Source of the DNA: Ostreococcus lucimarinus
Taxonomy: Eukaryota
Strand: one strand, 5' to 3'
Assembly (NCBI GenBank): GCA_000092065.1
Contig: CP000592.1
Length of the DNA stretch: 64,000 nucleotides
Shown: one piece after another, positions 13,674-64,000 of the stretch
Position numbering within the stretch: position 1 is the first letter of the stretch
Layout: each line of letters begins with the position of its first letter
Notes under the pieces: model-generated
What the model was told of the DNA's origin: nothing
Seen by the model: the letters and a program-made list of their open reading frames with translations, nothing else
Database searches by the model: none
Position numbers and translations under genes: made by a program

Positions 13674-14675
13674 TCAACGCACGGCGAGAAATTTCTCGAG
13701 TTTGGCCACCATCACGGGAGGCCAACGACGTATGCGCGTGACGTAATCGATATCGCGATATTTGGCGCAACCACTCTCGCGCGAACACGCTCGTTCCCAC
13801 GCATCTTCGGCGTCTTCGAAGCGGGCCGCTGAATAATATAAAGCGGCGCACGCCGCGCGCACGTCGGCGCTGTTCGGCGCGCGGCGGACGAGAGATTCGA
13901 GCTGTTTCAGCGCTTTATCTTCGTTTCCAAGCTGAGCTTCGGCGAGGGCAAGGTTGGAGAAGGCGTAAATAGCGCCGTCCAGGCGTTGCGTCGTCGAGGC
14001 GCCGACTTTGAAGCCGCGCGCGCCTTGGAAAAGATTCGCCGCGCTTTCGTAGTCATCCTTTGCCTTGTCCCAATTTCCGAGCGAGCCGTGGACGTTACCT
14101 CTAGAGTTCAAAACGTACGGATCCGGCGCGAATCCCGAGACTTCACACAACCGCAACACCTCGTCATAGTCGCGCAGGGCGTCCCGGAAGCGGTACACTC
14201 CCTCCAGAGCTAACGCCCTTCCCGCGAGAACGCGCGCCGAAGCGCTCGCATCGCCTTCGCACATCGCCACGGCCTCATCGTACGCTTTCAACGCATCGTC
14301 AAACTGTTTCGCGTCCACGCTCACCGTGGCCTTGGCCTCGATCCACCGCAGCTCGTTCGGCTCGGCTCGGCGCAGGGCGTCCAGCGCGTCGAGAGCGCGG
14401 CTAAAGTCTTGCACGTCGTACGCCTCTACCAACGCGCGCTGTAATTCGTCGATGCTCTCAGATGCAAACGCGCGGGAGTTTGCGCGCAACGAGCAACAGA
14501 ACGCGCCGATGACGGCGCTTCGGCGCGTCGTCGTCGTCCCGGAAGTGCTCGGGACGTCATCGGTCGGTGCTTTGAACCGTCGCGTTTGGTTTTGTCCACG
14601 TTCGGGGCGCGCGTCGGCGCGAACGCAGCGCGAAGACGACGCGATGATCGGTGTCGCGCTATACGAAGCGCGCAT
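13674..14675 (-). CDS. TPR-repeat protein, probably plastid-targeted
   Basis: 333-aa ORF with ATG at 14675. It has an S/T/R-rich N-terminus, then tandem TPR-like helices (ALKAYDEAVAMCEG..., ALRDYDEVLRLCEV..., NWDKAKDDYESAANLF..., FEDAEDAWERAC). Confidence 0.55.
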   Translation of the reverse strand: MRASYSATPIIASSSRCVRADARPERGQNQTRRFKAPTDDVPSTSGTTTTRRSAVIGAFCCSLRANSRAFASESIDELQRALVEAYDVQDFSRALDALDALRRAEPNELRWIEAKATVSVDAKQFDDALKAYDEAVAMCEGDASASARVLAGRALALEGVYRFRDALRDYDEVLRLCEVSGFAPDPYVLNSRGNVHGSLGNWDKAKDDYESAANLFQGARGFKVGASTTQRLDGAIYAFSNLALAEAQLGNEDKALKQLESLVRRAPNSADVRAACAALYYSAARFEDAEDAWERACSRESGCAKYRDIDYVTRIRRWPPVMVAKLEKFLAVR

Positions 14676-22000: not shown

Positions 22001-22593
22001 ATGGACGTCAACGCCTCCGCCTCGGGCGTACTGATGGTTCGATCAACGCTATCCGTCACCGGGCTCCGCAGCGTCGGTTCCGAGCCATCCTTATGTTCCA
22101 AATCTAGCGAGCACATCGTCTTCGGCGGCGACGCCGACGACGACGACGCGAACGGGGCGGAAGAAAAACCACCACCGCCGTGACCACCGTCACCGAACGC
22201 CGCGGTCGCACCGGACGGCGCCTCGCACGACGGCTCCGTCTCCGTCTTCGTCTCCGCGCCTTCCGTCGCCTTCCAAAACTTACACGTCCGTTTCAAATCC
22301 ACTTGAAACAACCTAAAATACGTCGTATTCGTCAACTCACTGAGAATAGAGTGTAACTGCGCCTCGTTCGCGCCCTCGACGTCCTCCACGTCGCACGACG
22401 CGTCCCCGACCGCGCCTCGCACCGCGTCGCGCGAGCGCGTCTCGCCTTCGCCTTCCCCTTCGCCCGTCGCCACCCCCGCGCCCCGCGCGCCGACGCTCGA
22501 CGCCACCGCGACGACCGCGATCGCGCCCACGAGCACCATCCACCATCGTCCGCGTCGTTCGCGTCCGCGTCCGCGCGTCCGCGTCGTCGCCAT
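19078..22593 (-). CDS. Tripartite fusion: ERO1 (ER oxidoreductin) + soluble FAD fumarate reductase (Osm1/Frd1 type) + cytochrome b5. The start was moved to the internal ATG at 22593 (a signal anchor).
   Basis: See finding 1. ERO1 motifs: [51 protein letters not shown]. Fumarate reductase motifs: [49 protein letters not shown]. Cyt b5: [22 protein letters not shown]. The N-terminus [26 protein letters not shown] is a signal anchor. The track ORF starts at a GTG at 22923. Confidence 0.8.
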
Positions 22594-22626
22594 CGTCGCG
22601 AACCAATCAATCAATCCGTCGCGCGG

Positions 22627-22708
22627 TCGAACCGAACCGCGCCGAACCGCGCCGAACCGCGCCGAACCGCGCCGAACCGCGCCGAACCGCGCCGAACCGA
22701 ACCGATCC
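22627..22708. repeat. 10-bp tandem repeat (gccgaaccgc), about 7 copies, in the divergent upstream region of the ERO1-fusion gene
   Basis: Direct read: gccgaaccgc is repeated head-to-tail from about 22631 to about 22700. It translates as a [10 protein letters not shown] periodic peptide inside the rejected upstream extension of the track ORF. Confidence 0.7.
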
Positions 22709-23294
22709 GCGACGCCCGCCCGCCCCCTCGCCCGCGCCCCCCCGCGCGCGCGTCGCTCGCGTCGCGCGATGCCGCCGCGATCGGTCGCCCGCGCCGTCTC
22801 CATCGCACATTCGTCGATCGCTCGTTCGCGTCGATCGACGATCGACCGATCGCCCGTTCGACGCGCGATCGGTCGAACGGCCCTCGGGGGCGAAACACAC
22901 CACCGCGGGCGGACCCGAAACACCGCGACAGCGGACCAAACGATGTTACGTATTTAACATTCACTTTACACTAGATGGTATTTTCCGCGACTCGCCGATC
23001 TCGACACGCGCCCGACGTCTTTCGGTCGCCGTTTCGCGCCGCGCGACGACGGCGGCGACGACGCCGCGCGACGGCGACGACGCCGCGCGACGCGACGCGA
23101 CGCGAAGAGTCGACGCTCGACGCTCGACGCTCGACGCGCGCGCGTCGCGACGCGTCGACGCGTTCGGCGCGCGTCGAGCGGCTCGGATCGGAGTTCGTTG
23201 GGCGCCGCCGCCGATCGACGATCGCGCGGGCGCGACGCGGATTCGAGGGCGCGCGCGACGCGCGGCGACGAGCGATCGACGACGATCGTCGACG

Positions 23295-24410: not shown

Positions 24411-25670
24411 TCACACTTTGTTTTGCTCCTCCTCGAGAAAGTAAATCACGGGTTTGAGCTCGAACGGAAGGGGAGAAGTATTGTCGTACGCGGGCAGATC
24501 AACTGGACGTTGCGACGGCGGTAGCGACGCGTACGCCGACGCCTTGGTTCGCTTCGTGTACTCGTCTCGCAACTCCTTGACGGTTTTCAGCGCGTAAAGC
24601 AGCATCGCGTACGCTCGAGGCGGCGACTCGGGCGAGCGAGATGAACGCTTGAGCTTGGACAAAATCACTCGAAAGCAAGCCTCCATGCGATCCCACGCCT
24701 CGGTGAGCTCGGCGATTTTTCTCGTCCAATACGTATCGTGCCACGCCGCGTGTGCTTCGCCTTGCAGGTGAAACATTCTAATCCATTGAAATTCAACCTC
24801 GCGATGGACGTCGGCTAAGAACTGTATCTGTTTCGCATCCAAAGGTTTATTCTCGCGCTCTAAGTCTGGTACAATTGCGAGCGCATCGATACACCGCCTT
24901 TTGATGTACTGGAACGTATCCTTGGCCACCACGGCGACTCGATGTGTCGAAGAATATCTCGCACTCGAGCCGGTGAGCACGGCGTGATGGTGAGTGGCGT
25001 TGAACTCACCACACATGTAATACGTCGCTTTATCCTCCAAAGGCACGCAAAGCACCTCGCACTCCGCGTTCAACGCCCTCAGCGCCACTCGCCAGTCTTT
25101 TCTCTCTGGCGCCTCGTATGTGTGATACACCGCCACGGTGGAGTTTTCTCGCAACGACGAATCGCTGTGCCAACTCACCGACGTCGTCCCGAGATCGAAC
25201 TTCTCCTCATTCCGTAGCTCTATTTCGCTCTCACCCTCTGTTTCCATGTAATTAATCAGCGTCACGTTGTATTCGCACTCACTCTCCGCGAACGCTCCGC
25301 CGAGCTTTTCGCATCGCTCTCGCGCGCTCCTCGTCAGCGTCTCGTTCAACCGTCTCACCACTTCGTACGCCTCCCGTCCGCGCCACGGTTGCGCAAACAG
25401 GCGTAACTTCTGATAATGATACGTCATTCCGTCCTCACCGAGCAGGCAGCGCCGCACGTACGTCGTGGACACTTTATTTCCGGCGGAAACGACGTCGTGC
25501 GTGAATTCGCCTCGGCTGCGCATGTCGTCGAACGCGCGTTCGACGTCGTCGTGAAGCGACGCGGGAAGCACCGAGGGCGCGTCCACGACGAAACCGCGGT
25601 AGTGCGCTCGATGGACGCGCGCGAACGGTTCGCCGTCCTCGGGTTCGAGCACGGAGGATGACGGCGACAT
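24411..25670 (-). CDS. FTO: FTO-like alpha-ketoglutarate/Fe(II)-dependent dioxygenase
   Basis: 419-aa ORF with ATG at 25670. It matches the FTO catalytic core: TYHYQKLRLFAQPW (cf. TYKYLNTRLFTVPW) and EYNVTLINYMET...TSVSWHSDSSLRENSTVAVYHTYE (cf. AYNVTLLNFMDP...[25 protein letters not shown]), with an FTO-like helical C-terminal domain. Confidence 0.75.
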   Translation of the reverse strand: MSPSSSVLEPEDGEPFARVHRAHYRGFVVDAPSVLPASLHDDVERAFDDMRSRGEFTHDVVSAGNKVSTTYVRRCLLGEDGMTYHYQKLRLFAQPWRGREAYEVVRRLNETLTRSARERCEKLGGAFAESECEYNVTLINYMETEGESEIELRNEEKFDLGTTSVSWHSDSSLRENSTVAVYHTYEAPERKDWRVALRALNAECEVLCVPLEDKATYYMCGEFNATHHHAVLTGSSARYSSTHRVAVVAKDTFQYIKRRCIDALAIVPDLERENKPLDAKQIQFLADVHREVEFQWIRMFHLQGEAHAAWHDTYWTRKIAELTEAWDRMEACFRVILSKLKRSSRSPESPPRAYAMLLYALKTVKELRDEYTKRTKASAYASLPPSQRPVDLPAYDNTSPLPFELKPVIYFLEEEQNKV

Positions 25671-45060: not shown

Positions 45061-45688
45061 CCCGCGTCGTCGTGTGCGCGTCGGCGCGTCGCGAACGCGC
45101 TCGACGCGCGCGCGCGCAAACCGGGCACTCCCGGGCAGCGCGTTCGCCGCGTCGCCGTCGCCGCGTCGCGCGCCTCGATCGTCGCGCGCCTCGATCGTCG
45201 CGCGTCTCGACGTGTCTCTCTCGCGCGCGCGGTCGAGCGACGCGCGCGACGCGCGAGGCGCGCGCGAGGCGCGACAACGCGACGCGTCTCTGGGACAGTT
45301 TCGACGAAGATGCGTTCGCGATGAACGACGACGACGCGGCGATTCGAGGGTATCTCGCGCGTCTGCGCGACGTCGAGGGCGAGGGCGACGCCAGCGCGGT
45401 GGACGCGCAGGGCGTGCTCGTGGAACTCAAGGTGCGGCGACGACGACGACGACGACAGAAGGATGATGATTTGATTTGATTTGATTTGGAAACTGACGAA
45501 CGGTGACGTAGGAACGATGCGAATCGATCGCGAAGGAAGACGTGGCGCGTCTGGGGATCCCGGGTGCGGTGTTCGATCGGCGCGCGGGCGTGGTGGCGTT
45601 CGTGGAGGCGACGGATGGACGACGAGGGAACGCGTTCGCGACGGCGCGAGCCAAGGCGTTGGACTTGACGGGAGAGCTCGCGACGAGG

Positions 45689-48600
45689 ATGGAGGGAATG
45701 GACGGCGATGATGGTGGGTTGGGATCGCGAGCCAGGGATGGGTTTGAAGTGATCATGATGACGTTTCGTAAGGAGACGTCGATGAGCGTGCGCTCGGGGG
45801 CGTTGAAGACGCTGTTGACGTTGGCGAGACGATACGCGGGCGAGATTGGACGAGGGACGATGCAGGCGTACGGACGGGCTTTGCGCAGAGATTTCGAGAG
45901 TTACACGAAAAATAGCAAGACGGTGAAAGGTTTGATATTGCGAGTCATCGGCGGTATGCACGAAGGGTTGCGACGCGAGGGTTTGACGCTCGTGACGGCG
46001 GAGGAAGCCATGGAGGACTCGAGTGCGCCGACGGCGAAGTGGTTGATGACGGCGTCGTGTCGCATTTTAGATGCCGCGCTGGACGATGAAGAAGACGTAA
46101 AGAAGGAGATTGTGCTCATGGCGAGCGCGTTATATGCGATTACGGCGTCCTTATCCGCGCGCGTCGCCGAAGAAGGTGCGGACAAGGCGAATTTTGCGCG
46201 CATTGTTCGCATCGTCGAGCACGCGGTGTCGTTGCGAGAGACTGGAACTCGAACAGACATGTCCAAGGCAGCGCTTGACTTAATCACCACGCACGCGCAC
46301 GCGTTGAGACACGAACTGGTGAAAATCTCTTCCAAGATGTTCGAGCTCCTGTTGAATTTGCGCACGCACAACAACAAGGAACTGGCTCGCTGTGCGGCAG
46401 CAGCGTACGAAGAGTTTTTACCTGCCATGCGTGACGCGTTCGTGTGCGATACGTTTTCTTCATCACGGGATTCCCGCGCAAAATTACTGGATGATATTTT
46501 AAAAGTCATCATGCGGATGCTAGACGACGAGAAAACGTCACAACGTGATAAGACGGCGTGCGTTCACGCATTGGGGAAATTCGCCGCGCCGGCGATGGAG
46601 TTGCTCTCCGACGACTACGCAGAGGTGAATACATACATGGAACGACTCGGCAAGCTCACGATGTACATCAAATTTCAGCAAGGAGAAAATGAGTTTCAAG
46701 AAAGATTCGAAAGCATTGAGCGTCAGGTGGCATTACTATCGGCTTTTAGCGACGTATTGCGATCTTCAAACGTTATGATTGACGAGGCGCTTCTAGAGAC
46801 TTTCGCTGGTTTGGTTGTTTGGATTTGGGAGCAGTACGCTTTCGAACTCGAGAGACGTAAACCTCAAATTCGTAACGCGTTGCTGAATTTGTTTGTCGTT
46901 CTCGCTTCCAAAGGTTGCGCTCTTCAGACACTCTTGACGCGCATCGGCTCTCAGCTTTTGTTCTTGACGCTCCGATTTTCTGAGCCGGACCCAATCGACA
47001 AAGTGCTGTGCAAAAACGATCCGGTACCGATGTGGCCTCGTTACGTCGATCTTTGGACGGCTCTCATCGGCGGCGGCAATGAATGCGCCGCAGGCGTTTA
47101 CGGTTGTTTCGTAAACGAGCTCCTCAACTTTTGCACTACGCTCGATCTTGGCATTGTGACGCCTACCGGAGAGGATTCGAATAGCGAACGAAACGCACGA
47201 ACCGATACTTCTACTAGCGATGATTTAGACACAACTTCAGTGGCGGTGAGCTTAGGCGACGACGCAAGCGCATCTAATCCGGGTGATATGTGCACCTTCT
47301 TACAGCTCGTAGAGTTCGCACAGCGAGTCATTGAGGAGTCCCCTGCAGACGCATTACTGCCTTGGGTGAACCATATCAGCACGAAATTAATGGCGATGGC
47401 TAATCGAAACAGCTCGATTTCTGCCTTTTACAAACTCATTGGAACGATCGTCAATGCCGCTGATCGCAGTGGATACTTTGGCAGACGAGATTCAGCCGAA
47501 GTGGAGCAAGTCGTCGCGCTGTTTCGAGAATTCTTACGAGATGTTTTGCAAGACACAAGACGATTCTCCGGCGAGCTGCTCGCGTCTGTGTTACAATTAC
47601 TATTGACACTCCCTTCGGTAATACTTCCGATTGAAAATTTGATAGCACCACTGTTGCGAGCCCTTGAACTTGGTCTACAACATCCTCCGGTGACGACAAT
47701 CGCTTTGAACACCCTCGAGCGCTGGCTCGATGGTAAGCATCTAGATGAGACTTCTCCGCACTTAGTACAGATAGCTAAACGCCTTAGTGCGTACTTGGAC
47801 AGCGCATCGAGTTCGAATGCGTTCTTTGGCGAAGTATACGAAAGCGAGGGTCGCGACAGGAAGAAAAAGCAGGCGAGCAAGGAGCAAGACGAAATGAGGC
47901 TCAAACGCGCGACTTTCATTCGGATCGTTAAAATTTTGGGCTCGATGGGTGGCGCAGCACACGGTTTATTGTCTGCAAAATCAAACAGTGAGCTCGACTC
48001 GCCGTGGGATTCTGACTCGAAGCTGTCGATGCCCATCGGTTTGGTTCGATCGTCTACAAAGTTATGGCTCGATAAATTACTTCCTCGCACTTCTCATTTG
48101 GCTATGTCTTCTCAAGATAGAGCGACAAAAATTGCTGCGTGCGAGGCACTTTATGGTTCAACTGTCTTTTTGATTGGCAGAAGCGCGCAAGGTCCGACGG
48201 CGTCGGCGGGCGATTTCACTCGCAGCGCATCTCAGTACCGCTCAATTTTCGAGAAACTTTTCCCAATAATTTTCGAATTGTCTGTCGATGCTGATGCAAT
48301 CTCCAGAAAGCTCTTCAGCGACCTTAGCTTCCAAATGACCAGATGGTATGCGAAGAGCCAAGCTCGTGAGTTGGACGTGACACTGTGTTTGTTTGACGCC
48401 TTAATCGAGGGACTGTCAAACACTTCAAAAGCCGGTGCCGTTCGTGATCTTTGCGCCTCACTAGTCGCAGAGTTGTTAGAGTGGAGTATAAAATATGTGC
48501 GAGATACGAAAGCGTTCGAAGGTACGGTAAATCACAGGTACATTCTGCGCACCTTGTTCGGATTGATGGGACACACGGGCTCAGCGCACAGATTGGGTGC

Positions 48601-51600
48601 GGTCACGGCGCTAAGAAAGTGTCTCAAGCATGTGACGAAGCATCGAAACTTGCTCGATGAATACGTTCTGGAAATACTTAACGTTACATTCAAAAGTATT
48701 GAAAGGTCGGGTGAACATTCTTTGACTGTTGGAGTTTCCACGAGAGGCGCTGATGTTGCTATGGCTATCGTTGTTCGCGAGATCCTACGCGCTATCCAGA
48801 CTCATGCGAAATGGCTCCTGCATTCACCGGGATCAACAGTGTCGAAATGTACTGACTCATTCATGCGAAGTCTACTCGAGCTCACCGCTAGCGGTGATGA
48901 TTTCTTGAGACGCGAGGCACAGCAGGCTTTTGCCACCATCGCGCCGCTGGCGCTTTCTGACGTCCGACGGTGGCTGCAAGGCAACTTGCATGTGATTTCG
49001 TCTTGCGTCGATGCTTCAGTTCCCGAAATGAAGGCGCTTGAGAATGGGAGCAAACGGCTGCTTAATAGATTTATCGCCGTCGTGCAGTGGTCAAGTTGGA
49101 CTATGTCCATGCATTTCACTGATTTGGAATTTTTCACCGCCTCGAGAACGACGCACTTTCATGCTGTCGGTCAATATTTAGATAGCATTTCTGGTAGACT
49201 CGAAAGTTCTTTCGTTCTAGAACAAGATACACCAGCCAATCAGACTGGTCATTTAGCTCGCGAAATTCTGGTTCTCTTTGATAGTATTTTGAACTCGCCG
49301 TGGAGTGGTGGCGATAAGGAAGCGCTCTTGGCGCTCTCCTTACCGCAAGAAAATGGAAACAGACGCGTGATCAAGCTGATATCGTCATCCATCTTCTACT
49401 CGCAAAACATTGCCAATGACGCTGATTCTAGTCGCAAATACCTTATGCCCGCTGCGGCACAGCTTCTGAGAACGCTTACAAAGGATCACGGTTCGAGCAA
49501 AGTTGCGCGACTAGGGGAAGAAGCATTTGCGTGTCTCAGAGGACTGATTGCGCTACCAAAGTTTGATCTCGGTGCGATCAATTTGGAGAACGCACAAGGT
49601 TGCATAGCCGCACAACGACTCGCCGACGGATATCGCGAGCTCGCGAATGTGCTCGTGCTACGCAGAATTCTACCACAGGAAGGTGAATCATCGGCAAAGA
49701 ATCTGACTCGTCGCGCGGCGACAGTCGTGCGTAATTTGTTCCACGCAAATCCTCCTCAGCGTGTGGTCGGCCAAGTCGTGATGCAGCTTTGTCTGCATCT
49801 TAACATAGCCCCTAGTGCTCTTCTTGACCTTCTTCTTGACAGGGTCCAAGATTCAGATGCGAAACTCGGTGAGACATTCTATCGCAATTACCGAGAACCC
49901 ATTCTGCGCGCATGCAAATATTCATTCGACGATTATGCCGGTGACTTGTTCAAAGTCGCTGGGGCGGACGTTCAATCACCCAGTGGTGCCGTCGTCACCG
50001 ACGTCATCGTCAGTGTGATTGAGCTCTCAATCCCAAAGGAAAACGCGACGCAAACTCGAAGTTTGGATGGAGGACGTGTACTGGCCACTCTGAAAAAGAA
50101 CATGTCGCATTTGTGTCATCTGTATGAGGATCACGAAGACGCCTCTGCCGTCGTGAAAAATACCTGTCATCAACGATTTTTGGCAATTCTTCGCGCAGCG
50201 GTGAAGCTAAATCGAGCGCTTGGATCGAGCCACGACTCGATTGCATCGGAGGACAGTTACACGAGTTTCTTAACTGTTATGGCTGGCTTGATGCGATGCG
50301 TGCGATGCGACTGCATCTCTCTGAGTTCGCAAGTTGATGCCGTCATGATCACCGCTGAGATTTTGGAGGGAATTAACATATCAAAATCATCTCGCGATGC
50401 GCTGGAAAAGAGTTTGAGTGATTCGTTGAAAAATATGGTCGTTCAAGAGCGATGTGATTCAACCACGTTCAAGAAACGTTTTCCATCAACAGTGAAAGCC
50501 TTCAAACAAGCGTTTTCCAAATACCAAGCACCATCGCTGATTGCTGCGCTTCTTCCGTTTTACGATGATTCAGATTCAAAGTCGGTCTTACTGGAAGAAG
50601 ATGTCACGGAAATACGATGGAATGCCGCTGTAGCGCAACAGATATGGCTCATTGCAGAGGATGAACATGTGGCAGTTGAGTCTCGCGCACTCGCCGTGTG
50701 TCGCATTCTTCCAAAACTTTTGTCGTCGAGCGACCCCACACAAGTCTTGGCGTTTTTCACGGATAATGCAAAAGCGATCGCGCAGGATATCGGCGGCGGT
50801 AAAACTGATATCCTATCGCGATTAAGGACTTTCGGTGTCTTGTCTGCGATGTACTCAAAGTGCACGAAGCAAGAAGTGATGGATGGACCTTGCGTGCAAG
50901 TTCCAAAACTGAATGCCCTCGTTTCAAAAGCTGTAATCAGCGAACTCAGTGGACACGGAACGGCAAGTAAATCGCTCTTAGGTCAAGAGAGTATCGCGTT
51001 GCACGCGACAAAAATGGCCTTTTCTGTCTTTGCGTCGCTGCTCACCTGCACACAGACAGATGTCAAGTTTTACGCCAAGTTATTTGAGAACGTTGCGTCA
51101 TGGAATAATCTGGTCGACCGGACAAAACGCGTGAAACTTGAGGCGACAATGGAAGTGAAACGAGCTCAACGAAACTTGAAAGCTGACGTGAGTACTACAC
51201 GGCTCAAATCGTTCACTTTGTCTTCAAATCTTGCGGCGATGTACTCCCTGAAACCGTCTGATACTGCCGAGAATGATAATCTCGCCGCCGACGAAGATAT
51301 TGCGCAACAAGACAACCATTCAAAAGGTACCCCGCGAGATGAACTCGAGGCTCACCCGGTGTCTGATGGCGTCTTTAAGATGCTAAAGCTCGTCGTAATG
51401 CGCGGTTTGACGGGCGATGCAAGTGGCTTGCGACCGGAGATGCAACTTTTGGAAATGGTTTCGTGTCTGCTGTACTCTCCCGCGGTTTTGGCTTCGGTCA
51501 AACTTCTCGTCGTCAAGGCGTTACTTAGATTAAACGATGATCTCACATCTGAGTCCAGTGGCGATGTCGGCATGACTGTTTTGATTACACAGCCATCGTT

Positions 51601-54600
51601 CCTGGCCGCGCACTCGGACCTTATGATTGCACTTCTCTCCGCGATGATTGAAATCACGAAGGAATCTGATGCCGCGTACGTGTCAACACCTTTGCGAAAA
51701 ACTATGAACATCGCGTTGGAGTGCGACAACTTGTGGTCTTCGAACTTTGAGGAAGCAAAAACGAGCATATTTGAGGCCACCGAGCTCGTCATCAAGAGTG
51801 GGTACTCGAGGAATGAAGACATCTTCAGAGAGAATCTCAAACTCTGCAGCAAGTTGTTCTCGCGTTTGCGTGACACCGCGCGAATGACAAGTACACCTAC
51901 GTCGCATTGCTTCCAAAGTTCGATGTATCAATTGCAACGACATCTTGAGTGCAAGCCAAAAGACCCCAGAAACACGAGTCTGGTGAAAGTATGTGCGCTT
52001 CGGAAGAAATTCGCTATTAAACTCATCGAGATATTAATCAACGCTGAAGCACCAGTATTGTGCGTTCGCGATACGAGTGTTTTCATCACGACTGCTCAGG
52101 GGAAGAAAATTGACGAAGAAATACCGTCACCTCTTTTGAATATTTTGTTGCGTTTTATCGATAAAGACGTTCGTAAGGGGTTGACAACGCTTGCTGCGTC
52201 GTTACTTGGTAGAATCATGAAAATCGATGGCGGTGTCGCTCAATGGCACAAATCCTTGCAAAAACAGTTAAAAGGTGTGAGTGACGACCTCTTACTGAAC
52301 ACGCTTGATCAAATCACGATAAGTTGTCCATCATTTGTGCACGATGCTGGATTCGCACCATCGATACAGTCACGTCTTGATACATTCTGGGGCGAACCGC
52401 GGTGCGTGGCGCTGCTGATTTTGACGAGAGATCACAGACCAGAACGGGTACAGTGGACATACGACCGACTATTGCCGTTCGTTGGTTCTCTATTGAAGCA
52501 GCGGGATTGCGAAGTCATGATTATACTTTTCGAAGCGCTCACGCGCGGCGCTCAGGCAATCACACGAACTCAGAGAGACGCAAATCATATCGAGCTATGG
52601 AAGAATGCTCTCGTTGAAGCAGACAATGCGGTGTCGATGGAAAGTGCTGTCAAAGTTCGCGAATCGCATACAAACTTGTGCATTGCCATTGCGGAGACGT
52701 ACCCTAAACTCATCAACGAATCGTCGTTGCAAGGTCCACTTTTACGAGCACTCGCCGATCCCGTGAGCTTGACTTGTCGACAAACGGCTTTACAATTTTG
52801 GAACAAGCGACTGCAATTCGATAACTTGGTCACGCGTCTTCACGACACCCTCCAATTGATTCCTCACGCGAAAGTAGAGAGTTTATGGCTCGCTGCAGCG
52901 TGCAGACTCTTATTTGCGGTACAAGAGATGAATCCGGCGTCAAGGGCTCCTTTGATTGACAACGACCTATCGGAGTGCGTGTTCACTTCGGTGAAGCTGG
53001 ATTCGTTGCGCCGCCGTGGAGCGTCTCAAACCATGGCTCCTTTGTTTTCAACTCAAGCGCAAGACCCGGACGCGGATGAGAAGCGAAGTGTCGTGCTCTC
53101 GACAATATTGGCAAACTTCAAACAACCTGCACGTGGTGACCCAACGATTGCGACCTCGCTTCCGTACGAGCTAGCGAATTTATTACAGTCGCAAGAGCAC
53201 GTCAAAGACTTTGGTGCGTTCCATGAGATTGCGCAAAATCTTGACATTGGAGCCAACAAAAAGAAGATCGACGATTTTCTGGTCGAAGAGATGAAAAACA
53301 GCGTCAAGCTGACTCGATCTTACAGGACAGGTGACTTACCTGACGTGAAAATATCGTGCCACGAATTGATTACGCCTTTCCTCCTCTGCGCTGAACGCGA
53401 TTCGGCAGTCGCATGCACGCTTCTCCGAGAGCTCGCGAATTCAGCACAGCATGAGTTTGCATTCATTCTAAAAGACCAAAATGATGCACGTCCAGCAAAG
53501 GAAGCGATGGCGATCGTGGCACAACCGCTGAAAGATTTCGTCGGAAGCATTGAAGGCAGGGATGCGTCGCTCGTTCGATTCATCCTTTCCTTGTGTGAAG
53601 TCATCCCACAAGCCGCGGAAATTCCTGTCGACCACGTCGTTCGACTCGCGACACGCGGTAGAAGTTTATCGAGTGGTGTCATCGCGATGGAGTCGATGAT
53701 CACGTCTGGTGATCAGTCACCGCAGACTTGGGAAGCTTTGGCTAAACTATACAGATCGCTGGGTTACGACGACGCCGCTTTGCTGTCGTTTGTGAACGCG
53801 TTTCCTCACCAGGAGGAGACGATGTGTGCGATTCGACAAGAGATGGCTGGCAATGTGCGAGATGCCGTGCAAGCGTACAAACACTTATTGAGTGCTGAAA
53901 TTGATCGATCTCCGCGAGAGAGCGAGTTTTTGAAACATGAATTTTTTCGCTGCGCCGAGCGGCTCGGAGAATGGGATGAAATCGGAAAACATCTCGAGGA
54001 CGTGCGAACTGGCGAGTTTAAAATCGAAGACTTGTCTTGCATTCCTGGAGAAGCTTCGGGTGGATCTAGTATTTGCACAGCATTTAGAGTCGCTCTTCGT
54101 CAACCTTTGGAAGACTGGTCGCCATTCTTGACCAAAGTTCTTCTGCAGGAGGACTCTACTCGCAAGTTGAAGCATCTCGGTGTAGAGATTGCGATGAACG
54201 CGCTGCTATCTGACAGTGCCGGCGACGATACTCGTGAGGTGCATGATGTATTGCAGCAAGTTTACCAAAGCTTCATAGACTCATGGAGCACGACCTGTAG
54301 TGCGTCCGTTGCCATTCGTCGGAAACTGCTGCAGGCCTTACAACCAGCCGTCGAGATCGACGAAACATTGCGCACGATTGACGAACTGAAGACAGGACTT
54401 CGCAAGCTGAAGAATATGGACATCAAGAAAGCGGAATCTATCGTCAATCAACTCGAAAGCAAATGGCAAACACGATGGCCTTCGGCTGCGTACGATGCGT
54501 CTGAGGTTTGGGAACGCGTCGTGACTTTTCGCTCCAGGATGCTGGGCACGCTGGCAAGTGTGATTCCAGAAATTCGCACAGATTCTATTGCAACGATGCG

Positions 54601-57139: not shown

Positions 57140-57398
57140 TAGATTTGAATAACTTTGATAGATGCAAACATGACAACGCGCAGCGCTCCTCCCTGCGCCT
57201 CGACAGCCACACTCGACAGCCACACTCAAACTTCAAATCGCGACCGCGCGCCGCGCGTCGCGGGACATGACGCGCGCCGCGTAGACCGGGCGAACGAACA
57301 AACGACACCAACTATTCAATCGCCGCGCGCCGCCGCCGGCGCCGCCTTCATCAGTGGTAGCGCGCGCGGCGAAGCCGTTCCGAGACGCGACGCGCGCG

Positions 57399-60300
57399 AT
57401 GGATGACATCGCTGCCCTGCACGACGCCTTGCGAAGCGATGGGCTTCGAAAGCGGCGGGTGCGTCTCGAACGACCGCGATTGACCGTACGCGTCGGTAGT
57501 GACGCGCGCGGACGCGTGAACGTGCGGTCACCGATGCGAAAGATGACTGACGGCGCGCGCGCGTAATCCCAACAGGATGGCATCAAGACGCTGTTGCTTC
57601 ATCTGCAGTCGAGCGATTTCGTGAAACAGCTCGACTCAGGCACGAGAGCGTATGATTCCACGGGAAGCGGTGACGTGCAGCGCACGTGGGCGGGATTGAT
57701 TAGCTCGGTGATGGTGTGCGTGACAAGCGAGTTAGAGGACGAGAAGCGCGTGGTTGACAAGAACGCGACGTCTTTGTTGAGAAAATTGGTGACGGCTGCG
57801 GAAGGAAGAAAAAAGACGAATGGGCTTTCGGCGCCGTTAATTCGGCGCGCGGGCAAGATATTTACGCACGTGCTTTACGTCTTACAAACGGGAGATGTGA
57901 ATTTTGTCGTCGATTACGTGCATGTGTTGCGCACCAATTTGCTCGTCGCGCCAGAGTATTGCTCGCGGGCGAAGCAAAGCGTCTTCGAGGGATTGATTGA
58001 ATATTTTGCCTCTAATCTTGCGTCGTATCGCGGTGAAGTGATTAACGGTGAAAAGAAGGAGGAGCGGTACCGTGGCGCGGCGGCATTTAATTTGTTGTTG
58101 CGCAACTGTCCATTTGATTTGTCAACGAATGCGGTAAACGGTTTGTTTGAGGTGTTCAAAGAAATATTTCGAGATATGCACGAGGATGGACGCACACCCG
58201 CTATGCTCGTTTCTGCGATGAATAGCTTTCTTCTGAAGACGAGCTTGGACGTGAGTTCGCGCATGACTTCGCTTCACGAGAGTGTCGTGCCGTATCTCTC
58301 GTGGGCGCTTAAGGGAAACGCACGTGACAAGCGCTTGAAAGAGGAATTGATTAAGTACTGCCACTTGCACGTCAATTTAGATGTAGTGAGTGATGGTGGC
58401 GCTGAATTTCTCGTCGAGTTGCTCGCGAGGCAGATCGATGAGATTGGTTCGGACAGATCCGTAGGCGGCGACAACGCCGAAAGATTTGAAGTGAAATTGC
58501 CGCAAAAGTTGTTGTTTGAGCTCTTCGCAGACTTGGTCATGGTTTTGAAGCAACAGAAATCCTTTGCGGGAGTGTGTTTGTACGATGGTGAGCGAACGCC
58601 GAAGCGCGCACGAGGGAACGAAAAACCTGTGGAACGCATACTATCAAAGATTTTGAACGACAGTGGTTGCTGGAGCGCCGTGTTTTGCTTGCTTTTGAAA
58701 CGGCACAGCGCCGCGTTAACGAAGGAAGAGTTAGCTAGTTGCGCGAAACGACTGTTGCACGCACTGAGCGAAATGTTTTCTCAAGGAAGCATGTCAGATA
58801 TGAAAGCCCTGGCTCACGCAATCTGGTTGATTCGATGCTTGCAGGAAATCGCTGGCACGATGCACAACGAAACGCTACCATTGTGGACGGATGTGACGAA
58901 TTGTCTCGTCTACTGGCTTCCAGCGCACCTATCTGACGTTCGCTTAACGAACGACGTGCTTTTACTTTTTGCGGCGATGATCAGTCACAGACTCGTACAC
59001 CCGTCGTTATTGAGACAGAAATTCTGGTTGCTCACCATCTTTGATTTTGCTGACATTCCAAGTTTGGCTACGCTGGAGCTCGTGGGTGCGGTGGCGTCCA
59101 TCGGGCTTTGTGATCACGTCTTGGCGGGTCGCTCTTATGACAGTTACTTTAAGTGGCTAATTCGTGGACTGTCGCAGAAGAATGACGATCGAATGTCATT
59201 CTACGGGCGTCGCGCAAATGTGACGTCTTCGTACGATTTAGCGCTGTTGCGTGTGCAATCGGCGATTCAGAATTCATTCATCGCTGGCTCTCACAAGCCT
59301 TGGGTAGACGATGTCACGCGCCGCGCGTGGCTAGAAGTGCCCGATGAAGAGCATTTAGAGTTTTTGCGAGGCGTGGAAGATCTTCACTTAGTTGCGAAAC
59401 CTTTCGCCACACTCAAGCTTGAGTTTAGAGACGCGGCAGAGCGCAAAGAGGACGATGGCGCGAAGCGAATCAATACGAAGGAACTAAGCATGGACCCGGA
59501 AGTTCATCGTGTAGGTACCGATTGTTTGGAGCACGCGATGACGAACGCGTCGACATCTGAAGACGCGATGCGACTATGCACGATAGCTTTAGGTATTATA
59601 GGAGCCGTGGCGTCGGTCGGTCGATCGTCACGGTCTGTGCAGAGTCTAGATTGGGGCGTGAGCGGGTCGCTCATCAGAACGGTCAAACACACCATATCTA
59701 CTGCGTTAGAGTATGACACGATGGTGATGCTGAACGCGAAGACGAGTGTGCTCGAAACCATCCCAATCTTGGCGGGCGCTCTTGAGCAAATTCAACAAGC
59801 AGCCGGTTTGGGAGCAAGTTTGGAAGCAACCTCTCACAAACTCGTCAAAGTATTGACTGAAATGACCAAAGACTTTTTGAAAATCATCAGAGATGCACTG
59901 CAAGGCAACGGAAGCGTGCCAGCTAGTGCTCGGCAGTCGCAAGAAGCCGTTCAGTTTGGTGACGATTTGGACTTTGAGATGGCCGACGCCACCTTGTCAG
60001 AGACGCAGCGCTCAAATACATCTCAGATGGCGACAACATCGGGGTCCAATGAACGAGAAACGACGATTGCCTGTGGCGAACAAGTCATAAGGAAAATTCT
60101 GAGATGCTTTAAGTCGATGTCCGTGGTGGTTCCAAGCACGGTGACAACATCTACATCGATGTTGCTCCGATACGCCGTTCCTCCAGAAGGTGCGCCACCT
60201 CGTGGACCCTGCGGTATTGGTGTTTCTCAAGACATCGCCGAGTTAGTCGTAGATTTTGTCGGATTAGCCGACACGGAGTATCTGATTGATCACCTCGTTC

Positions 60301-63300
60301 CTTGTCTTCAGGCGGTGGCGAGAGGGCAAGTAAATTTGGATGAGAACACGGGCCTCACTTCTTCTGCTCGTTTATGGTTACTGCATCAGATCACAGTCTT
60401 GTGTCACGGAATATGCAGGCTTAAGTTGAACGCTTCAAATTATCCGTCTACGACTCAGGGCACGATGCCCAGTAACATACACGAGGTATTGGCTGACTTG
60501 GTGTCACGAGCCGCCGGTATTTTGGACGGTGAAGCTCCAGCAGCGTTGAGAAATTGTGTTGCTCGCGCAAAATTAGCTGACTGCATTTTTTCGTTGTTCA
60601 AGCTGAATATAGACTACTTCCAGCCTAGATTTGGTAGTTCGTTAGCTTGGCTTTTAGGGGATGAAAGTTATTTGGTGCGCATACATGCTGGCTCTGCAAT
60701 TGCGTCCATACTAGATTTCTACGAAGAAGCGGACCACACGAGTATATTTCAAAATACCGTCGTTCCTGGATTGGCCATCAAGTGTCAGTTTCTCCCGAAT
60801 GGCAGCTTGAATATTGGCGATGGTGAAATTGCAGAAACCGAAGCTGAGTGGTCTAGCTTGCATTTCATTTCCGCCGTTGGTGTTGTTTCTCGAGTGTTGG
60901 AACCGTGGTGCACGTACATAATCGTTCATCATCGAGCGCGTCATGGTGAACGTGTGCAGATACCTGCGATAAACGCGTTAAAATATCTAGCAGAAGCAAC
61001 TGGCCACACATCTCTGGAATCTTTCGTTGCCTATCACAGCCGAACTATCGGGAAACTTTGGATAGACTCTGGCGCACCTTTGTCGATGTTGTTTCAAGTG
61101 CCAGAGTTCCTCGGCTTGTCTCAATCTGCTGAGCGAGAGTCCGTCGCGATTCATCTCAAAAGATCTTTGCTCCCAGCGTTGATATATGAGCAAGACCGTG
61201 ATGGATTGAAAACTTTGACGTCGACTTGCGGAATGGCACACAAGTTCAAGCAAATGATTCAAGGAGATTGGGACGCCATTTATGCGCGTTTGTACGCGTC
61301 GGCGGTAAAGTCTAATCCCGATCGCAAAGCTATTCAAGCACTCACGTACGCGAATTCCATGGTGAAAAACAATGGTGGATGGAACTCCAAACATCCTTCG
61401 GTGCAGATTCAGATTTTATTCGAACTCTTGCTCTTGGCAAGGGATCCTGTTTCGCCTCCCTACAGTCGATCCAGCGATATTGTGGAAGTCGTCGGTAAGT
61501 TTATGGATGAAAAGGACTTGAATATTCGTTGGGATGTTAACATCATATTTCAATGCATGTTGCGTATCCACGAGGCGGTTGATATGGCTACGTCATCGAG
61601 ACATAAATTGAAGACTTTGAACGCGCTGAAAGTTTTGCTGCTGTGTATCGGCGACGAAAGGGTTCGAAGTCCGTCCATATTCCGTTACGTCTACTTCATG
61701 CTTATTCCAAATATCAACGATCATACGATCGGCACGCAGTGTATTCAAGTTTTGGTCAACCTAACTCTCAACGCCTACGACGACCTACGTCAAGCCGACG
61801 ACGCCGAAAGTGAACTTGCGTTAGCGATGGAAAGTTTCATCATGCCTCTCATGTTTGTGTTGTCTTCTGTCGTCGAGTCAAAGTCAAGTCCGAACGCTCA
61901 ACGCAATGAGGCTCTAAAGTTGTTGACCGCTATCGTCACCAATCCACCGATGCTCATTCATCACGCGCTATGTGTGCTACCGCCATTGCCAGATGTACCC
62001 ATGCTGAGCGAAGTCAGATCGATTCTCTCGGTCGCATTTGAGAAGCCAAGCTTTGATATACGTCTCATGTCGCTCGTCAAAAAGGCACCGACGTTGCCTA
62101 AAGCCTTGAGTAGAGTAGCGTTGAGAGCCGGCGGTCTCGAGGCTCTACAGCACAAAACAGAGCTCGCGCAAATGTACGGGCAGAACGAGTCATCTTCCAT
62201 TCCTGAAAACGTATGGAAATTTGCAGAGCTCGTCTCACCGCTTGGAGATACTGAACTCTTCGCGATCGCCGCTGAGCTGCTTTCTTTACTCGGTCCTCTG
62301 AGGCCGAACACGTTGGCGTTCATCACGCCAGAGATGAAACTTCCGATTGACTCGAAGCATATCAAAGTCGGACTCACCGAAGCGGGCACTTTCGTTTTCG
62401 ATGTTCTCAAGTACTTGAGCGGCCTTCTCTGCTCGCCGATGAGCTCGACTGTTCGCGCTGCAGCGACTACCATTCAATCGTTACTGATGGTAAAAAAAGC
62501 GGCTCTGGTCATGGACAAGATGTCTAAAATAGACAAGGCATATCTCTTGCCTTTTGAGCATCCTTCGTTGCGATTGGTGCCTGAATCTGTCAGCGCAACC
62601 AACAATGTCACGGACGCATACGCTCTCGATGATGAACGTCTTTGGACAGTCAATGAGAACGGTTCCGAGACGAAGTACGAAGAATGGATTTGTCGTCTCA
62701 GCCATAGGTTGATAAGCGAGTTCAAACCACATACGAAGAGTAAGAATGACCCTCAGTTTTCGTTGACGGTGTTCGAATTATTGGGTCCGCTGATGATTTC
62801 TGACGCCGTATTGGCAGAGTTGGTGTTCCCTCCTATTTTGTATGAGATCACTAGCGCGCGCGGTAATTTGTCGATTCCTGCGAATCGAGAGGTGCGCGAT
62901 CGCCTGAGTCGCGGGGTTTCAATTTGTCTAAGTCGCGCAAATTTGCCAGAAGGAAAAAAGGCGGCGAAGTTCATGTTGCGCGCTCTTGATTACTTGCGCG
63001 GTAAACGCATGCGGGCATTTAGGATGGTGGATGCGCTACCACAGGATGACTCAAAAGTTTCTGCCGTTCAGAGAAAGGTGCCTCGAGGCGTGGAGGCAAC
63101 TCAATGGGAAAAAGTGTACTGGCTGAATGTTGACTATCTCGTCGTCGCTCAAGCTGCCATTCGCTTGCAAGCTCCTCTCACGGCTACGCTTCTTGTGGAA
63201 CATTGGCTCGAAGATAAAACCGGCACGGTTTCGCTGAACGCGATGGACTCTCAAGGACAAACGTCCGACGCAGTGCCTCCATATCTCACGCTCCTGCTCG

Positions 63301-64000
63301 AAGCACAATCGAAACTTTCAGAACCCGATGGTTTGTACGGTCTATTACGCTCCAACTCGCTGGAATTACAATTGCATTTGAGTGAGCACGAAGGTCACTG
63401 GGATAGAGCGCTCGCCGGTTACGACTTGCTGCAGAGCGACGTCGAAAACAATATGAACGGTGGAATGGCGAGCTCACGCGTGCCCATGCTGAACGCATTA
63501 CGTCAGCTCGGTTGTTTGCATCTTCTTCGCGCATACTCCAAGGCACTTTCAGACGACGAATTGGCCGCTCCAGAGCTCAAGGATGTGCAATATGAAGCCG
63601 CATGGAGAGCGGGTCAATGGACGCTGCCGGCTGCGGTTACGCGCACGCAAAATTCGGGCGTTGTAGATTTCAATCAGAATCTTCATTCGTCGTTGCGAGC
63701 GCTCGAACGAGGTGATGTAGGCTGTGCGATATATGAGACCAATCGGTGTCGTGCGCAACTGCTGCAAAATGTCATAAGTGGTGCCGCAGAATCGGCTGAC
63801 GCGATGAATATAACGATCATGCGCATGCGCATGCTCGACGACGTCACCGATGCGGCGAAATTATGGCGTCACTTCATGGGTAACAACATCGACGCGATGC
63901 AAACTGCTACCAAAAGTTTGAGCGATTCCTGGCAGATGAGACACGTGAAAGATGGTCCGTTTAAGCTCATCGAACCATCACTCGCGCTGCAAGGCGTTCT
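57399..64000 (+). CDS. ATM: ATM (ataxia-telangiectasia mutated) kinase, N-terminal about 2100 codons; it continues past the window end. Predicted exon 1 is 57399..57485, then a 90-nt intron, then 57576..>64000.
   Basis: A single frame is open from 57567 to the window end, so it is not in the ORF track. The FAT-region reads QWEKVYWLNVDYLVVAQAAI, then EPDGLYGLL...HEGHWDRALAGYDL...ELKDVQYEAAWRAGQWT, which aligns to human EPDSLYGCGG...HEAMWGKALVTYDL...ELEELHYQAAWRNMQWD. A TAN-motif-like start MDDIAALHDALRSDGLRKRRVRLE lies in the same frame upstream of an in-frame TAA, and a GTACGC...ACAG intron removes that stop. Confidence 0.8.
57486..57575 (+). other. Predicted 5' intron of ATM (GT...AG, 90 nt, containing the in-frame TAA at 57564-57566)
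   Basis: Same-frame exons lie on either side, with a phase-0 donor after ...RPRLT and a phase-0 acceptor before DGIKTLLLHLQ. Confidence 0.45.

What the first reader, a model, noticed from the sequence alone, without database searches (positions are those of the whole stretch)
45542..64000. DNA-PKcs and ATM arranged head-to-tail 260 bp apart
Seen: an 11.5-kb ORF (45542..57139) ends with the DNA-PKcs-specific FATC tail LLDLATNPELLAVAWSGWRPWL and carries the PIKK catalytic motifs (GGEDLRQDERIQRLF, GVGDRHLDNILLD, HIDFGYAFG). 260 bp downstream on the same strand, a second giant frame (57399 or 57576 to beyond 64000) matches the ATM N-terminal HEAT region and FAT domain (QWEKVYWLNVDYLVV; EPDGLYGLL..HEGHWDRALAGYDL..ELKDVQYEAAWRAGQWT).
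Established knowledge: DNA-PKcs is absent from land plants and yeasts, so a full-length PRKDC in a green-lineage genome is phylogenetically notable.
Inference: two of the largest DNA-damage PIKK genes sitting adjacent and co-oriented is unusual. They may share regulatory context, or the arrangement may preserve an ancient linkage.
Basis: partly seen in the sequence, partly recalled or inferred. Interest (0 to 1): 0.7.

Follow-up and report, generated by a model that had tools for sequence, protein, structure and literature searches.

The report
Adjacent DNA-PKcs and ATM genes, Ostreococcus
Two giant DNA-damage kinase genes, DNA-PKcs and ATM, do sit next to each other in the green picoalga Ostreococcus lucimarinus, but both genes were already known there and the neighbouring looks like ordinary inherited gene order.

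Summary
The window is Ostreococcus lucimarinus CCE9901. It carries an intact DNA-PKcs gene of 3912 aa under my model, ending at 57139. An ATM gene starts 259 bp downstream on the same strand at 57399. All quoted motifs are present, and Pfam and PDB comparisons place each gene firmly in its own PIKK family.

The interpretation needs correcting in three ways.
1. DNA-PKcs is not absent from land plants, only from angiosperms. It has been reported in Ostreococcus since 2014.
2. The pair is already implicit in the O. tauri annotation as consecutive locus tags: DNAPK Ot12g01950 and ATM Ot12g01960.
3. I found the same head-to-tail pair in three further Ostreococcus-like lineages and in Bathycoccus prasinos. 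It is missing downstream of DNA-PKcs in Micromonas pusilla and at least six related lineages.

This distribution matches the published genome-wide pattern, in which Ostreococcus and Bathycoccus share more gene order with each other than with Micromonas. The 259-bp spacer is normal for this compact genome. The genes are separate units, each with its own ATG and short first exon, a conserved stop codon and a freely evolving spacer. They are not recent duplicates. The low GC of both genes follows a general gene-length versus GC3 trend.

Verdict: real, ordinary and largely already known.

The parts
45321..45431 (+). Proposed DNA-PKcs exon 1: ATG plus 37 codons (MNDDDAAIRGYLARLRDVEGEGDASAVDAQGVLVELK)
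   Evidence: Read from the sequence. The exon ends at GTGCGG. It shows 0-1 substitutions in 111 nt against L001/L002. The big ORF has no ATG before the conserved ATDGRRG block. This is a model and is not confirmed by a transcript.
45432..45511 (+). Proposed DNA-PKcs intron 1 (80 nt, GTGCGG...GTAG)
   Evidence: The in-frame TAG at 45509-45511 doubles as the 3' splice site. L001 carries 6 indel columns here.
45512..57139 (+). DNA-PKcs exon 2 with stop codon. Pfam domains: DNA-PKcs_N 47096-47827, CC1-2 48242-48739, CC3 (weak) 50798-51196, CC5 53288-53470, FAT 54194-55222, PI3/PI4 kinase 56033-56851, FATC 57047-57136. Also a T2609-like TQ at 53036-53062 and the YRPD motif at 53318-53380.
   Evidence: Codon-phase substitution counts are 145/71/330 and 78/42/215 against L001 and L002.
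57140..57398 (+). Intergenic spacer between the DNA-PKcs stop and the ATM ATG (259 nt)
   Evidence: It is 4-6% diverged and carries indels that are not multiples of three against L001/L002. The spacer is 230-291 nt in other Ostreococcus lineages and 143 nt in Bathycoccus. The only words shared with the DNA-PKcs upstream region are CG-rich.
57399..57458 (+). ATM exon 1 (MDDIAALHDALRSDGLRKRR), the first half of a TAN-like N-terminal motif
   Evidence: Conserved as M[DE][DE][IL].A[LV]HE.LRSDKLRKRR followed by GT in 4 other lineage representatives. A similar exon is present in Bathycoccus L089.
57459..57575 (+). ATM intron 1 (117 nt, GTGCGT...CAACAG) containing an in-frame TAA
   Evidence: It carries 13 substitutions in 117 nt against L001, compared with 1 in 60 nt for exon 1.
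57576..64000 (+). ATM exon 2, cut by the window end. It covers the HEAT/TPR solenoid (TPR_ATM 61146-61655) and the start of the FAT domain (about 63066-63990, aligned to human ATM 1915-2227). The gene runs about 2.7 kb beyond the window through the kinase and FATC domains.
   Evidence: The remainder was read from the same-species contigs L001 and L003. Total length is about 3060 aa.

Best explanation
These are the two ordinary, intact, vertically inherited single-copy orthologues of PRKDC (DNA-PKcs) and ATM in Ostreococcus lucimarinus CCE9901.

**Gene structure.** Each is an independent gene. Each has its own ATG, a short first exon and one small 5' intron, then one giant exon. They lie in tandem with a 259-bp spacer, which is normal for this very compact genome.

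**Origin of the adjacency.** It arose by rearrangement, either in the common ancestor of Ostreococcus and Bathycoccus or earlier with later loss in the Micromonas lineage. It has since been carried along as part of the generally well-conserved gene order within Bathycoccaceae. It is not an operon, not a fusion and not a recent duplication.

**Inferred function.** DNA-PKcs would be recruited by Ku70/Ku80 to DNA ends and act as the non-homologous end-joining kinase. ATM would act as the double-strand-break signalling kinase. This is inferred from orthology and intact catalytic motifs. It was not shown here.
For: **Organism.**
- Exact protein matches to XP_001420808.1 and XP_001420641.1 of O. lucimarinus CCE9901.

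**Orthology.**
- DNA-PKcs-specific Pfam domains plus FAT, kinase and FATC.
- Human DNA-PKcs scores 8e-155 against mTOR 2e-40.
- The YRPD motif and the T2609-equivalent TQ are present.
- Among the top-ranked hits that carry a source name in a 1.84-billion-protein library are near-full-length proteins labelled DNA-PKcs (liverwort, slime mould).
- ATM ranks ATM > Tel1 > ATR > mTOR > SMG1 > DNA-PKcs.

**Purifying selection.**
- Third-codon-position excess of substitutions in both genes.

**Separate genes.**
- Stop codons are present in every lineage (TGA, TAA or TAG).
- The ATM exon 1 and its splice position are conserved.
- Spacer length varies.

**Distribution of the adjacency.**
- Present in O. 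lucimarinus, in three other Ostreococcus-like lineages, and in Bathycoccus prasinos across three independent assemblies.
- O. tauri carries consecutive tags Ot12g01950/Ot12g01960.
- Absent downstream of DNA-PKcs in M. pusilla CCMP1545 and at least six related lineages.
- This mirrors the published statement that genome organisation is better conserved between Ostreococcus and Bathycoccus than with Micromonas (PMC3491373).

**Ordinary spacing.**
- Spacers between neighbouring genes in the window range from 34 to 288 bp.
Against: - Two specific genes out of about 7,600 being immediate neighbours has a prior of roughly 3 in 10,000. For any pair among 5-6 PIKK genes it is roughly 0.4%. These are my own estimates.
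- The pair has survived the Ostreococcus-Bathycoccus divergence, so selection for linkage cannot be excluded.
- I could not measure what fraction of adjacent pairs is retained between these genomes. The neutral expectation is therefore qualitative only.
- No expression data were examined.
- Only the downstream side of DNA-PKcs was examined in Micromonas.
Confidence: 0.8

Rival explanations
1. The tandem is a selected DNA-damage-response gene cluster. Keeping the two double-strand-break kinases in one chromatin or regulatory domain, or allowing read-through from DNA-PKcs into ATM, would co-ordinate their expression. On this view the order has been kept across Bathycoccaceae for that reason.
For: - The head-to-tail order and a short spacer (143-291 nt) are conserved in all six adjacency-positive lineages, including Bathycoccus and O. 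tauri.
- Both genes share an unusual 5' architecture and the same low GC3.
Against: - The pair is not kept in the sister family: ATM does not follow DNA-PKcs in the Micromonas lineages.
- The spacer evolves fast and with indels.
- No shared upstream motif was found beyond CG-rich words.
- Low GC3 is explained by gene length alone.
- The distribution matches genome-wide synteny.
Confidence: 0.12
2. The adjacency is a relic of the ancient tandem duplication that produced the PIKK family, preserved since before the last eukaryotic common ancestor.
For: Both genes are PIKK paralogues in the same orientation.
Against: - The two proteins are the most distant PIKK pair in my comparisons. ATM scores 95 bits to DNA-PKcs against 263 to ATR. 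Identity is 25-28% and limited to the kinase-to-FATC region.
- The arrangement is missing in Micromonas, the nearest outgroup examined.
- From general knowledge, human PRKDC and ATM lie on different chromosomes.
Confidence: 0.03
3. The adjacency or the giant uninterrupted ORFs are assembly or annotation artefacts, such as a chimeric join or a collapsed region.
For: None was found. Some metagenome copies carry single-base indels that fragment the ORFs.
Against: - The same junction is present at 96-100% identity in at least five independent metagenome assemblies of the same species (L001-L005).
- It is also present in independent assemblies of four other lineages.
- The window ORFs are intact.
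Confidence: 0.01

Closest known systems
Ostreococcus tauri DNA-PK (Ot12g01950; OUS42981.1) and ATM (Ot12g01960), described in Hindle et al. 2014 (PMC4143559), Lees-Miller et al. 2021 (PMC8021618) and Khan & Ochi 2023 (PMC10419180)
   Same: These are the same two orthologues in a sister species. They carry consecutive locus tags on chromosome 12, which implies the same adjacency. The DNA-PKcs is intron-poor and about 3,900 aa, with FAT, kinase and FATC domains and the YRPD motif.
   Different: The species differs. No fetched lineage matched the one O. tauri peptide I could check. The papers do not comment on the adjacency. O. lucimarinus keeps a TQ at the T2609-equivalent position, where the 2023 paper reports Glu in O. 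tauri.
Human DNA-PKcs (PRKDC; e.g. PDB 5w1r, 7nfc)
   Same: It has the same domain order: N-HEAT, circular cradle, FAT, kinase, FATC. It shares the catalytic motifs KGGEDLRQD, DRHxxN and DFG, the YRPD motif, and a TQ at the T2609 position. The match is 520 bits over three colinear stretches.
   Different: The algal protein is about 3912 aa against 4128 aa. Identity is roughly 30%. The CC3 domain is only weakly detectable. The PQR and several ABCDE sites are reported as not conserved in green plants (PMC10419180). The gene is essentially one exon, whereas the human gene has many (general knowledge).
Human ATM / yeast Tel1 (PDB 6k9k, 8oxm, 6sky)
   Same: The size is about 3060 aa against 3056 aa for the human protein. 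TPR_ATM, FAT, kinase and FATC are present, and ATM is the best hit.
   Different: The N-terminal solenoid is very diverged, with no PDB match before residue about 1830. The TAN-like motif is split by an intron and deviates from the consensus at two positions in O. lucimarinus.
Micromonas pusilla CCMP1545 DNA-PKcs locus (GG663735.1, partial model MICPUCDRAFT_2423)
   Same: It is an orthologous DNA-PKcs ORF open across the whole fetched stretch (at least 3829 codons), with the same FATC ending WSGWRPWL.
   Different: It is followed by a small minus-strand gene and other ORFs, not by ATM. That small gene is TPR/ARM-like in the related lineages, with no Pfam hit on record in M. pusilla itself. Its GC (0.72) is not lower than its flanks.

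Membership tests
DNA-PKcs (PRKDC) | PIKK catalytic domain with an ATP-binding Lys motif, a DRHxxN catalytic loop and a DFG motif | tested here: met
   Pfam PI3_PI4_kinase 1.3e-50. Motifs found: FIVKGGEDLRQD, GVGDRHLDN and HIDFG.
DNA-PKcs (PRKDC) | FAT domain upstream of the kinase and FATC at the extreme C-terminus | tested here: met
   FAT 29.9 bits (cut-off 24.2). FATC 30.2 bits (cut-off 25.3), ending at the last residue.
DNA-PKcs (PRKDC) | DNA-PKcs-specific N-HEAT and circular-cradle regions | tested here: met
   DNA-PKcs_N 1.5e-45, CC1-2 6.5e-24 and CC5 1e-16. CC3 scores only 18.2 bits, below its cut-off of 28.9.
DNA-PKcs (PRKDC) | YRPD motif (YRxGxxPD), which distinguishes DNA-PKcs from other PIKKs (PMC8021618) | tested here: met
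   SYRTGDLPDVKISCHELITPF aligns to human [21 protein letters not shown].
DNA-PKcs (PRKDC) | Closer to DNA-PKcs than to any other PIKK | tested here: met
   Human DNA-PKcs scores 520 bits. mTOR scores 140, SMG1 129, Tel1/ATR 121 and ATM 119. The top-ranked library hits that carry a source name are labelled DNA-PKcs. No formal multi-family tree was built.
DNA-PKcs (PRKDC) | Ku70/Ku80 partner present; kinase activated at DNA ends | not testable with these tools
   Ku genes are not in the window. PMC11936186 Table 3 lists O. lucimarinus as having both Ku70 and Ku80. Activation is biochemical.
ATM / Tel1 | ATM-type solenoid (TPR_ATM) and a FAT domain colinear with human ATM | tested here: met
   TPR_ATM 32 bits (cut-off 27). 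The only PDB matches are ATM chains at 8e-18, with query 1831-2139 aligned to human 1915-2227.
ATM / Tel1 | Kinase and FATC domains, closer to ATM than to ATR, TOR or DNA-PKcs | tested here: met
   This part lies outside the window. On the same-species contig L001 the scores are ATM 493 bits, Tel1 278-334, ATR 263, mTOR 195 and DNA-PKcs 95. The protein ends ...LAVMYAGWAPWV.
ATM / Tel1 | N-terminal TAN motif (L/V/I)xxx(R/K)xx(E/D)Rxxx(L/V/I). The consensus is quoted from memory. | tested here: inconclusive
   The spliced N-terminus reads LRSDGLRKRR|DGI, which is L-xxx-G-xx-K-R-xxx-I. Other lineages have K at the (R/K) position. The consensus was not checked against a database.
Polycistronic unit or gene fusion | One continuous reading frame, or no independent start for the second gene | tested here: not met
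   A stop codon is present in all lineages. The ATM ATG exon is conserved. The spacer carries indels that are not multiples of three.
Recent tandem duplicates | The neighbours are each other's closest paralogues | tested here: not met
   Identity is 25-28%, restricted to the kinase-to-FATC region. Each gene is far closer to its human orthologue.
Mamiellales low-GC outlier-chromosome region (BOC1) | A contiguous low-GC region spanning many genes, intron-rich, on the big outlier chromosome | tested here: not met
   Low GC begins and ends with the two genes. GC returns to 0.67-0.73 right after the ATM stop. The source contig is about 539 kb. GC3 is predicted by gene length.

The most novel reading that the evidence does not exclude
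The DNA-PKcs to ATM tandem is a selected two-gene DNA-damage-response unit of Bathycoccaceae. Its head-to-tail order and short spacer would be maintained because transcription or chromatin state of the upstream giant gene controls the downstream one, for example by read-through or a shared nucleosome/5mC domain. That would couple the dosage of the end-joining kinase and the checkpoint kinase in a cell with a minimal regulatory repertoire.
Probability: 0.1. Interest if true: 0.4.

Novelty: already known. Interest (0 to 1): 0.15.

Why it matters
The practical value is small.

- **Correcting the premise.** DNA-PKcs is widespread in green plants other than angiosperms. It has been known in Ostreococcus since 2014.
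- **Better gene models.** This work gives a cleaner model for both O. lucimarinus genes, each with a short first exon and a 5' intron. It shows that the T2609-type TQ site is kept in this species.
- **A small synteny marker.** DNA-PKcs is followed by ATM in Ostreococcus and Bathycoccus but not in Micromonas. This may help in binning or classifying Mamiellales contigs.
- **An experimental opening.** O. tauri allows homologous-recombination knock-outs, so the pair is a compact place to study DNA-PK and ATM in a photosynthetic cell.

None of this changes current understanding.

Tried and rejected
1. **Protein word-index search.** The search with the full 3865-aa protein timed out. Shorter queries returned only 95%-identical metagenome fragments. 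I therefore used the exhaustive representative search and a metagenome locus scan with an alignment.
2. **Low-GC outlier-chromosome hypothesis.** The 18-kb low-GC block (GC 0.50 against about 0.62) suggested the Mamiellales outlier chromosome or foreign DNA. I rejected this. GC recovers immediately after ATM. GC3 falls with gene length among 20 other ORFs (rho -0.72), and extrapolation predicts the observed values.
3. **Shared promoter elements.** I compared the two upstream regions. Only CG-rich words are shared and no E2F-like sites were found.
4. **Large ORFs downstream of DNA-PKcs in Micromonas-like loci.** These ORFs (1465-2153 aa, in L021, L024 and L025) might have been diverged ATM. They have no Pfam hits and no tblastn match to ATM, including its kinase domain.
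5. **Position of Bathycoccus in a DNA-PKcs tree.** A neighbour-joining tree with 200 bootstraps recovers the Ostreococcus and Micromonas groups at 100%. It leaves Bathycoccus unresolved (56% / 31% / 12%), so gain versus loss of the adjacency cannot be polarised from this gene.
6. **Naming an O. tauri lineage.** The single O. tauri peptide printed in a paper supplement matched none of the fetched lineages. O. tauri adjacency therefore rests on locus tags only.
7. **tRNA scan of the window.** None were found.
Full report

Yes. The ORF listing reports one 3865-codon ORF at 45542..57139 on the plus strand.
- FIVKGGEDLRQDERIQRLF at 56039-56095
- GVGDRHLDNILLD at 56564-56602
- HIDFGYAFG at 56624-56650
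- the C-terminal LLDLATNPELLAVAWSGWRPWL at 57071-57136, followed by TGA

An ATG lies at 57399, 259 nt after the stop. The frame starting at 57576 is open for 2141 codons to the window end. It contains QWEKVYWLNVDYLVV, EPDGLYGLL, HEGHWDRALAGYDL and ELKDVQYEAAWRAGQWT.

Two metagenome contigs are 96-97% identical to this part of the window and colinear with it. Against them, substitutions in both genes fall mostly on third codon positions: 145/71/330 and 20/11/67 against L001. Both frames are therefore under purifying selection and are not chance ORFs.

**2. Organism and gene models.**

Exact-sequence look-ups of neighbouring ORFs hit XP_001420808.1 and XP_001420641.1 of Ostreococcus lucimarinus CCE9901, on a record of about 539 kb.

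- Exon 1 is 57399-57458 (MDDIAALHDALRSDGLRKRR).
- A 117-nt intron follows (GTGCGT...CAACAG). It holds an in-frame TAA.
- Exon 2 starts at 57576.

This short exon, ending ...LRSD[K/G]LRKRR directly before a GT, is conserved in the three other Ostreococcus-like lineages. A similar exon is present in Bathycoccus.

The DNA-PKcs ORF has no ATG before the conserved ATDGRRG block. I propose a 37-codon exon 1 (45321-45431), an 80-nt intron (45432-45511) and exon 2 from 45512, giving 3912 aa. This model is supported only by sequence logic and low divergence. No transcript confirms it.

The rest of ATM lies outside the window. On same-species contigs it continues to a kinase and FATC domain ending ...LAVMYAGWAPWV. 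The total is about 3060 aa, followed by a Psb27 gene.

**3. What the genes are.**

Gene 1 is DNA-PKcs.
- It hits the DNA-PKcs-specific Pfam models DNA-PKcs_N (1.5e-45), CC1-2 (6.5e-24) and CC5 (1e-16), and weakly CC3. It also hits FAT, PI3_PI4_kinase (1.3e-50) and FATC.
- Against all PDB chains, human DNA-PKcs scores 520 bits (8e-155). mTOR scores 140, SMG1 129 and ATM 119.
- The YRPD motif that defines DNA-PKcs (PMC8021618) is present as SYRTGDLPDV.
- The T2609-equivalent position is a TQ, in APLFSTQAQ.
- An exhaustive HMMER search of 1.84 billion representatives returns many near-full-length proteins of 3,400-4,500 aa. Those carrying a source name are labelled DNA-PKcs, including a liverwort and a slime mould.

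Gene 2 is ATM.
- It hits TPR_ATM above threshold.
- The in-window part matches only ATM chains, colinear with human residues 1915-2227.
- The C-terminal part ranks human ATM (493 bits) > Tel1 (278-334) > ATR (263) > mTOR (195) > SMG1 (155) > DNA-PKcs (95).

The two neighbours are thus about as distant as PIKK paralogues can be. That rules out a recent tandem duplication.

**4. What is already known.**

- DNA-PK in O. tauri was described in 2014 (PMC4143559).
- DNA-PKcs was then shown to be widespread in eukaryotes (PMC8021618).
- It is present in all green-plant groups except angiosperms (PMC10419180).

In the 2014 kinome table, O. tauri DNAPK is Ot12g01950 and ATM is Ot12g01960. Consecutive locus tags mean the adjacency is already implicit in a public annotation. 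I found no paper that comments on it.

**5. How far does the adjacency extend?**

I scanned JGI metagenome contigs with an alignment of DNA-PKcs C-termini, then ran tblastn with both proteins.

Lineages with ATM immediately downstream on the same strand:
- O. lucimarinus
- L007/L008
- L009/L010/L017
- L011-L016 and L020

In the three non-lucimarinus lineages DNA-PKcs is 48-57% identical to the window protein and ATM is 50-58% identical. All have high-GC flanks (0.61-0.68) after ATM, as expected for Ostreococcus.

A low-GC (0.45) lineage also has DNA-PKcs followed by ATM. It was seen in three independent assemblies (L089, L093, L094). It is Bathycoccus prasinos. All five NLS peptides printed for the B. 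prasinos DNA-PKcs in a supplement of PMC10419180 occur exactly in L089.

Lineages without ATM within the 6-10 kb available downstream:
- The DNA-PKcs locus of Micromonas pusilla CCMP1545 (L083, which matches L018/L019 at 93-98% nt identity).
- At least six other high-GC Micromonas-like lineages.

In several of the Micromonas-like lineages DNA-PKcs is instead followed by a small minus-strand TPR/ARM-like gene.

A neighbour-joining tree recovers the Ostreococcus and Micromonas groups at 100%. It leaves Bathycoccus unresolved. I therefore cannot say whether the tandem was gained in Bathycoccaceae or lost in the Micromonas lineage.

The distribution equals the published genome-wide pattern. Organisation is "globally better conserved" between Ostreococcus and Bathycoccus than with Micromonas (PMC3491373).

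**6. Is there anything special about the junction?**

I found nothing.
- The 259-nt spacer lies within the range of other spacers in the window, 34-288 bp.
- The spacer is the fastest-evolving segment along with the introns. It carries indels that are not multiples of three.
- Its length varies from 143 to 291 nt among lineages.
- The two upstream regions share only CG-rich words.

The striking 18-kb drop in GC (0.50 against about 0.62) is confined to the two genes. It is explained by a general rule in this window. GC3 falls with ORF length among 20 other ORFs (rho -0.72, p = 4e-4). Extrapolation predicts 0.51 and 0.54, against the observed 0.535 and 0.551.

**7. Conclusion and likely mechanism.**

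Shown:
- Two intact, selectively constrained, separately initiated genes.
- Each is firmly orthologous to DNA-PKcs or ATM.
- They are adjacent in Ostreococcus and Bathycoccus, but ATM does not follow DNA-PKcs in Micromonas.

Inferred:
- DNA-PKcs acts with Ku at DNA ends in non-homologous end joining.
- ATM acts as the double-strand-break checkpoint kinase.
- The adjacency is a neutral, lineage-specific piece of conserved gene order.

A regulatory coupling remains possible, at about 10%, and needs transcript data. The finding is real but ordinary and largely already in the literature, so interest is low.

Noticed in passing
window 19078..22923 (-): A single 1281-aa ORF fuses an ERO1 domain (aa 189-599), a fumarate-reductase-type flavoprotein domain (FAD_binding_2, aa 713-1170) and a cytochrome b5 domain (aa 1212-1279). 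This may be a Rosetta-stone link between ER oxidative folding and an alternative electron acceptor.
   Followed up: no
window 45512..64000, compared with the other ORFs of the window; also L007, L010, L011: Both giant genes have GC3 of 0.54-0.55 against 0.61-0.84 for their neighbours. GC3 declines with ORF length among 20 other ORFs (rho -0.72), and this trend predicts the PIKK values. The same dip is conserved in three other Ostreococcus lineages. It is absent in Micromonas, where DNA-PKcs is as GC-rich as its flanks.
   Followed up: partly
window 57399..57575; L003, L007, L008, L010, L011, L089: The first ATM intron interrupts the N-terminal TAN-like motif at the same position (...LRSD[K/G]LRKRR|GT...) in all Ostreococcus lineages. 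A similar boundary is present in Bathycoccus prasinos. DNA-PKcs appears to have the same layout of a short first exon followed by a small intron.
   Followed up: partly
window 53036..53062: The residue aligned to human DNA-PKcs T2609 is a Thr followed by Gln (APLFSTQAQ) in O. lucimarinus. PMC10419180 reports a Glu at this site in O. tauri.
   Followed up: no
window 10606..13851 (-): A 1081-aa protein combines ankyrin repeats, a 3'-5' exonuclease domain (DNA_pol_A_exo1) and a C-terminal RING finger.
   Followed up: no
window 24411..25670 (-): An FTO-like 2-oxoglutarate dioxygenase, identical to XP_001420808.1, which UniRef names 'Alpha-ketoglutarate-dependent dioxygenase FTO'.
   Followed up: no
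L021:14436-20798, L024:14508-20966, L025:12831-17225 (Micromonas-like loci): Large ORFs (1465-2153 aa) lie 1-3 kb downstream of DNA-PKcs in the same orientation. They have no Pfam hit and no similarity to ATM. In high-GC DNA some of these may be spurious.
   Followed up: partly
proteins P0370, P0382, P0389 (clusters of Micromonas-like DNA-PKcs): Gene calls of 5174-5199 aa appear in the same 90% clusters as DNA-PKcs C-terminal fragments. They are about 1,300 aa longer than any DNA-PKcs examined here. I did not check whether they are real extensions or over-long calls.
   Followed up: no
window 45168..45205 and 57189..57217: Short tandem duplications lie in the two upstream regions: CGCGCCTCGATCGT x2 upstream of DNA-PKcs, and CTCGACAGCCACA x2 upstream of ATM. 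I attach no significance to them.
   Followed up: no
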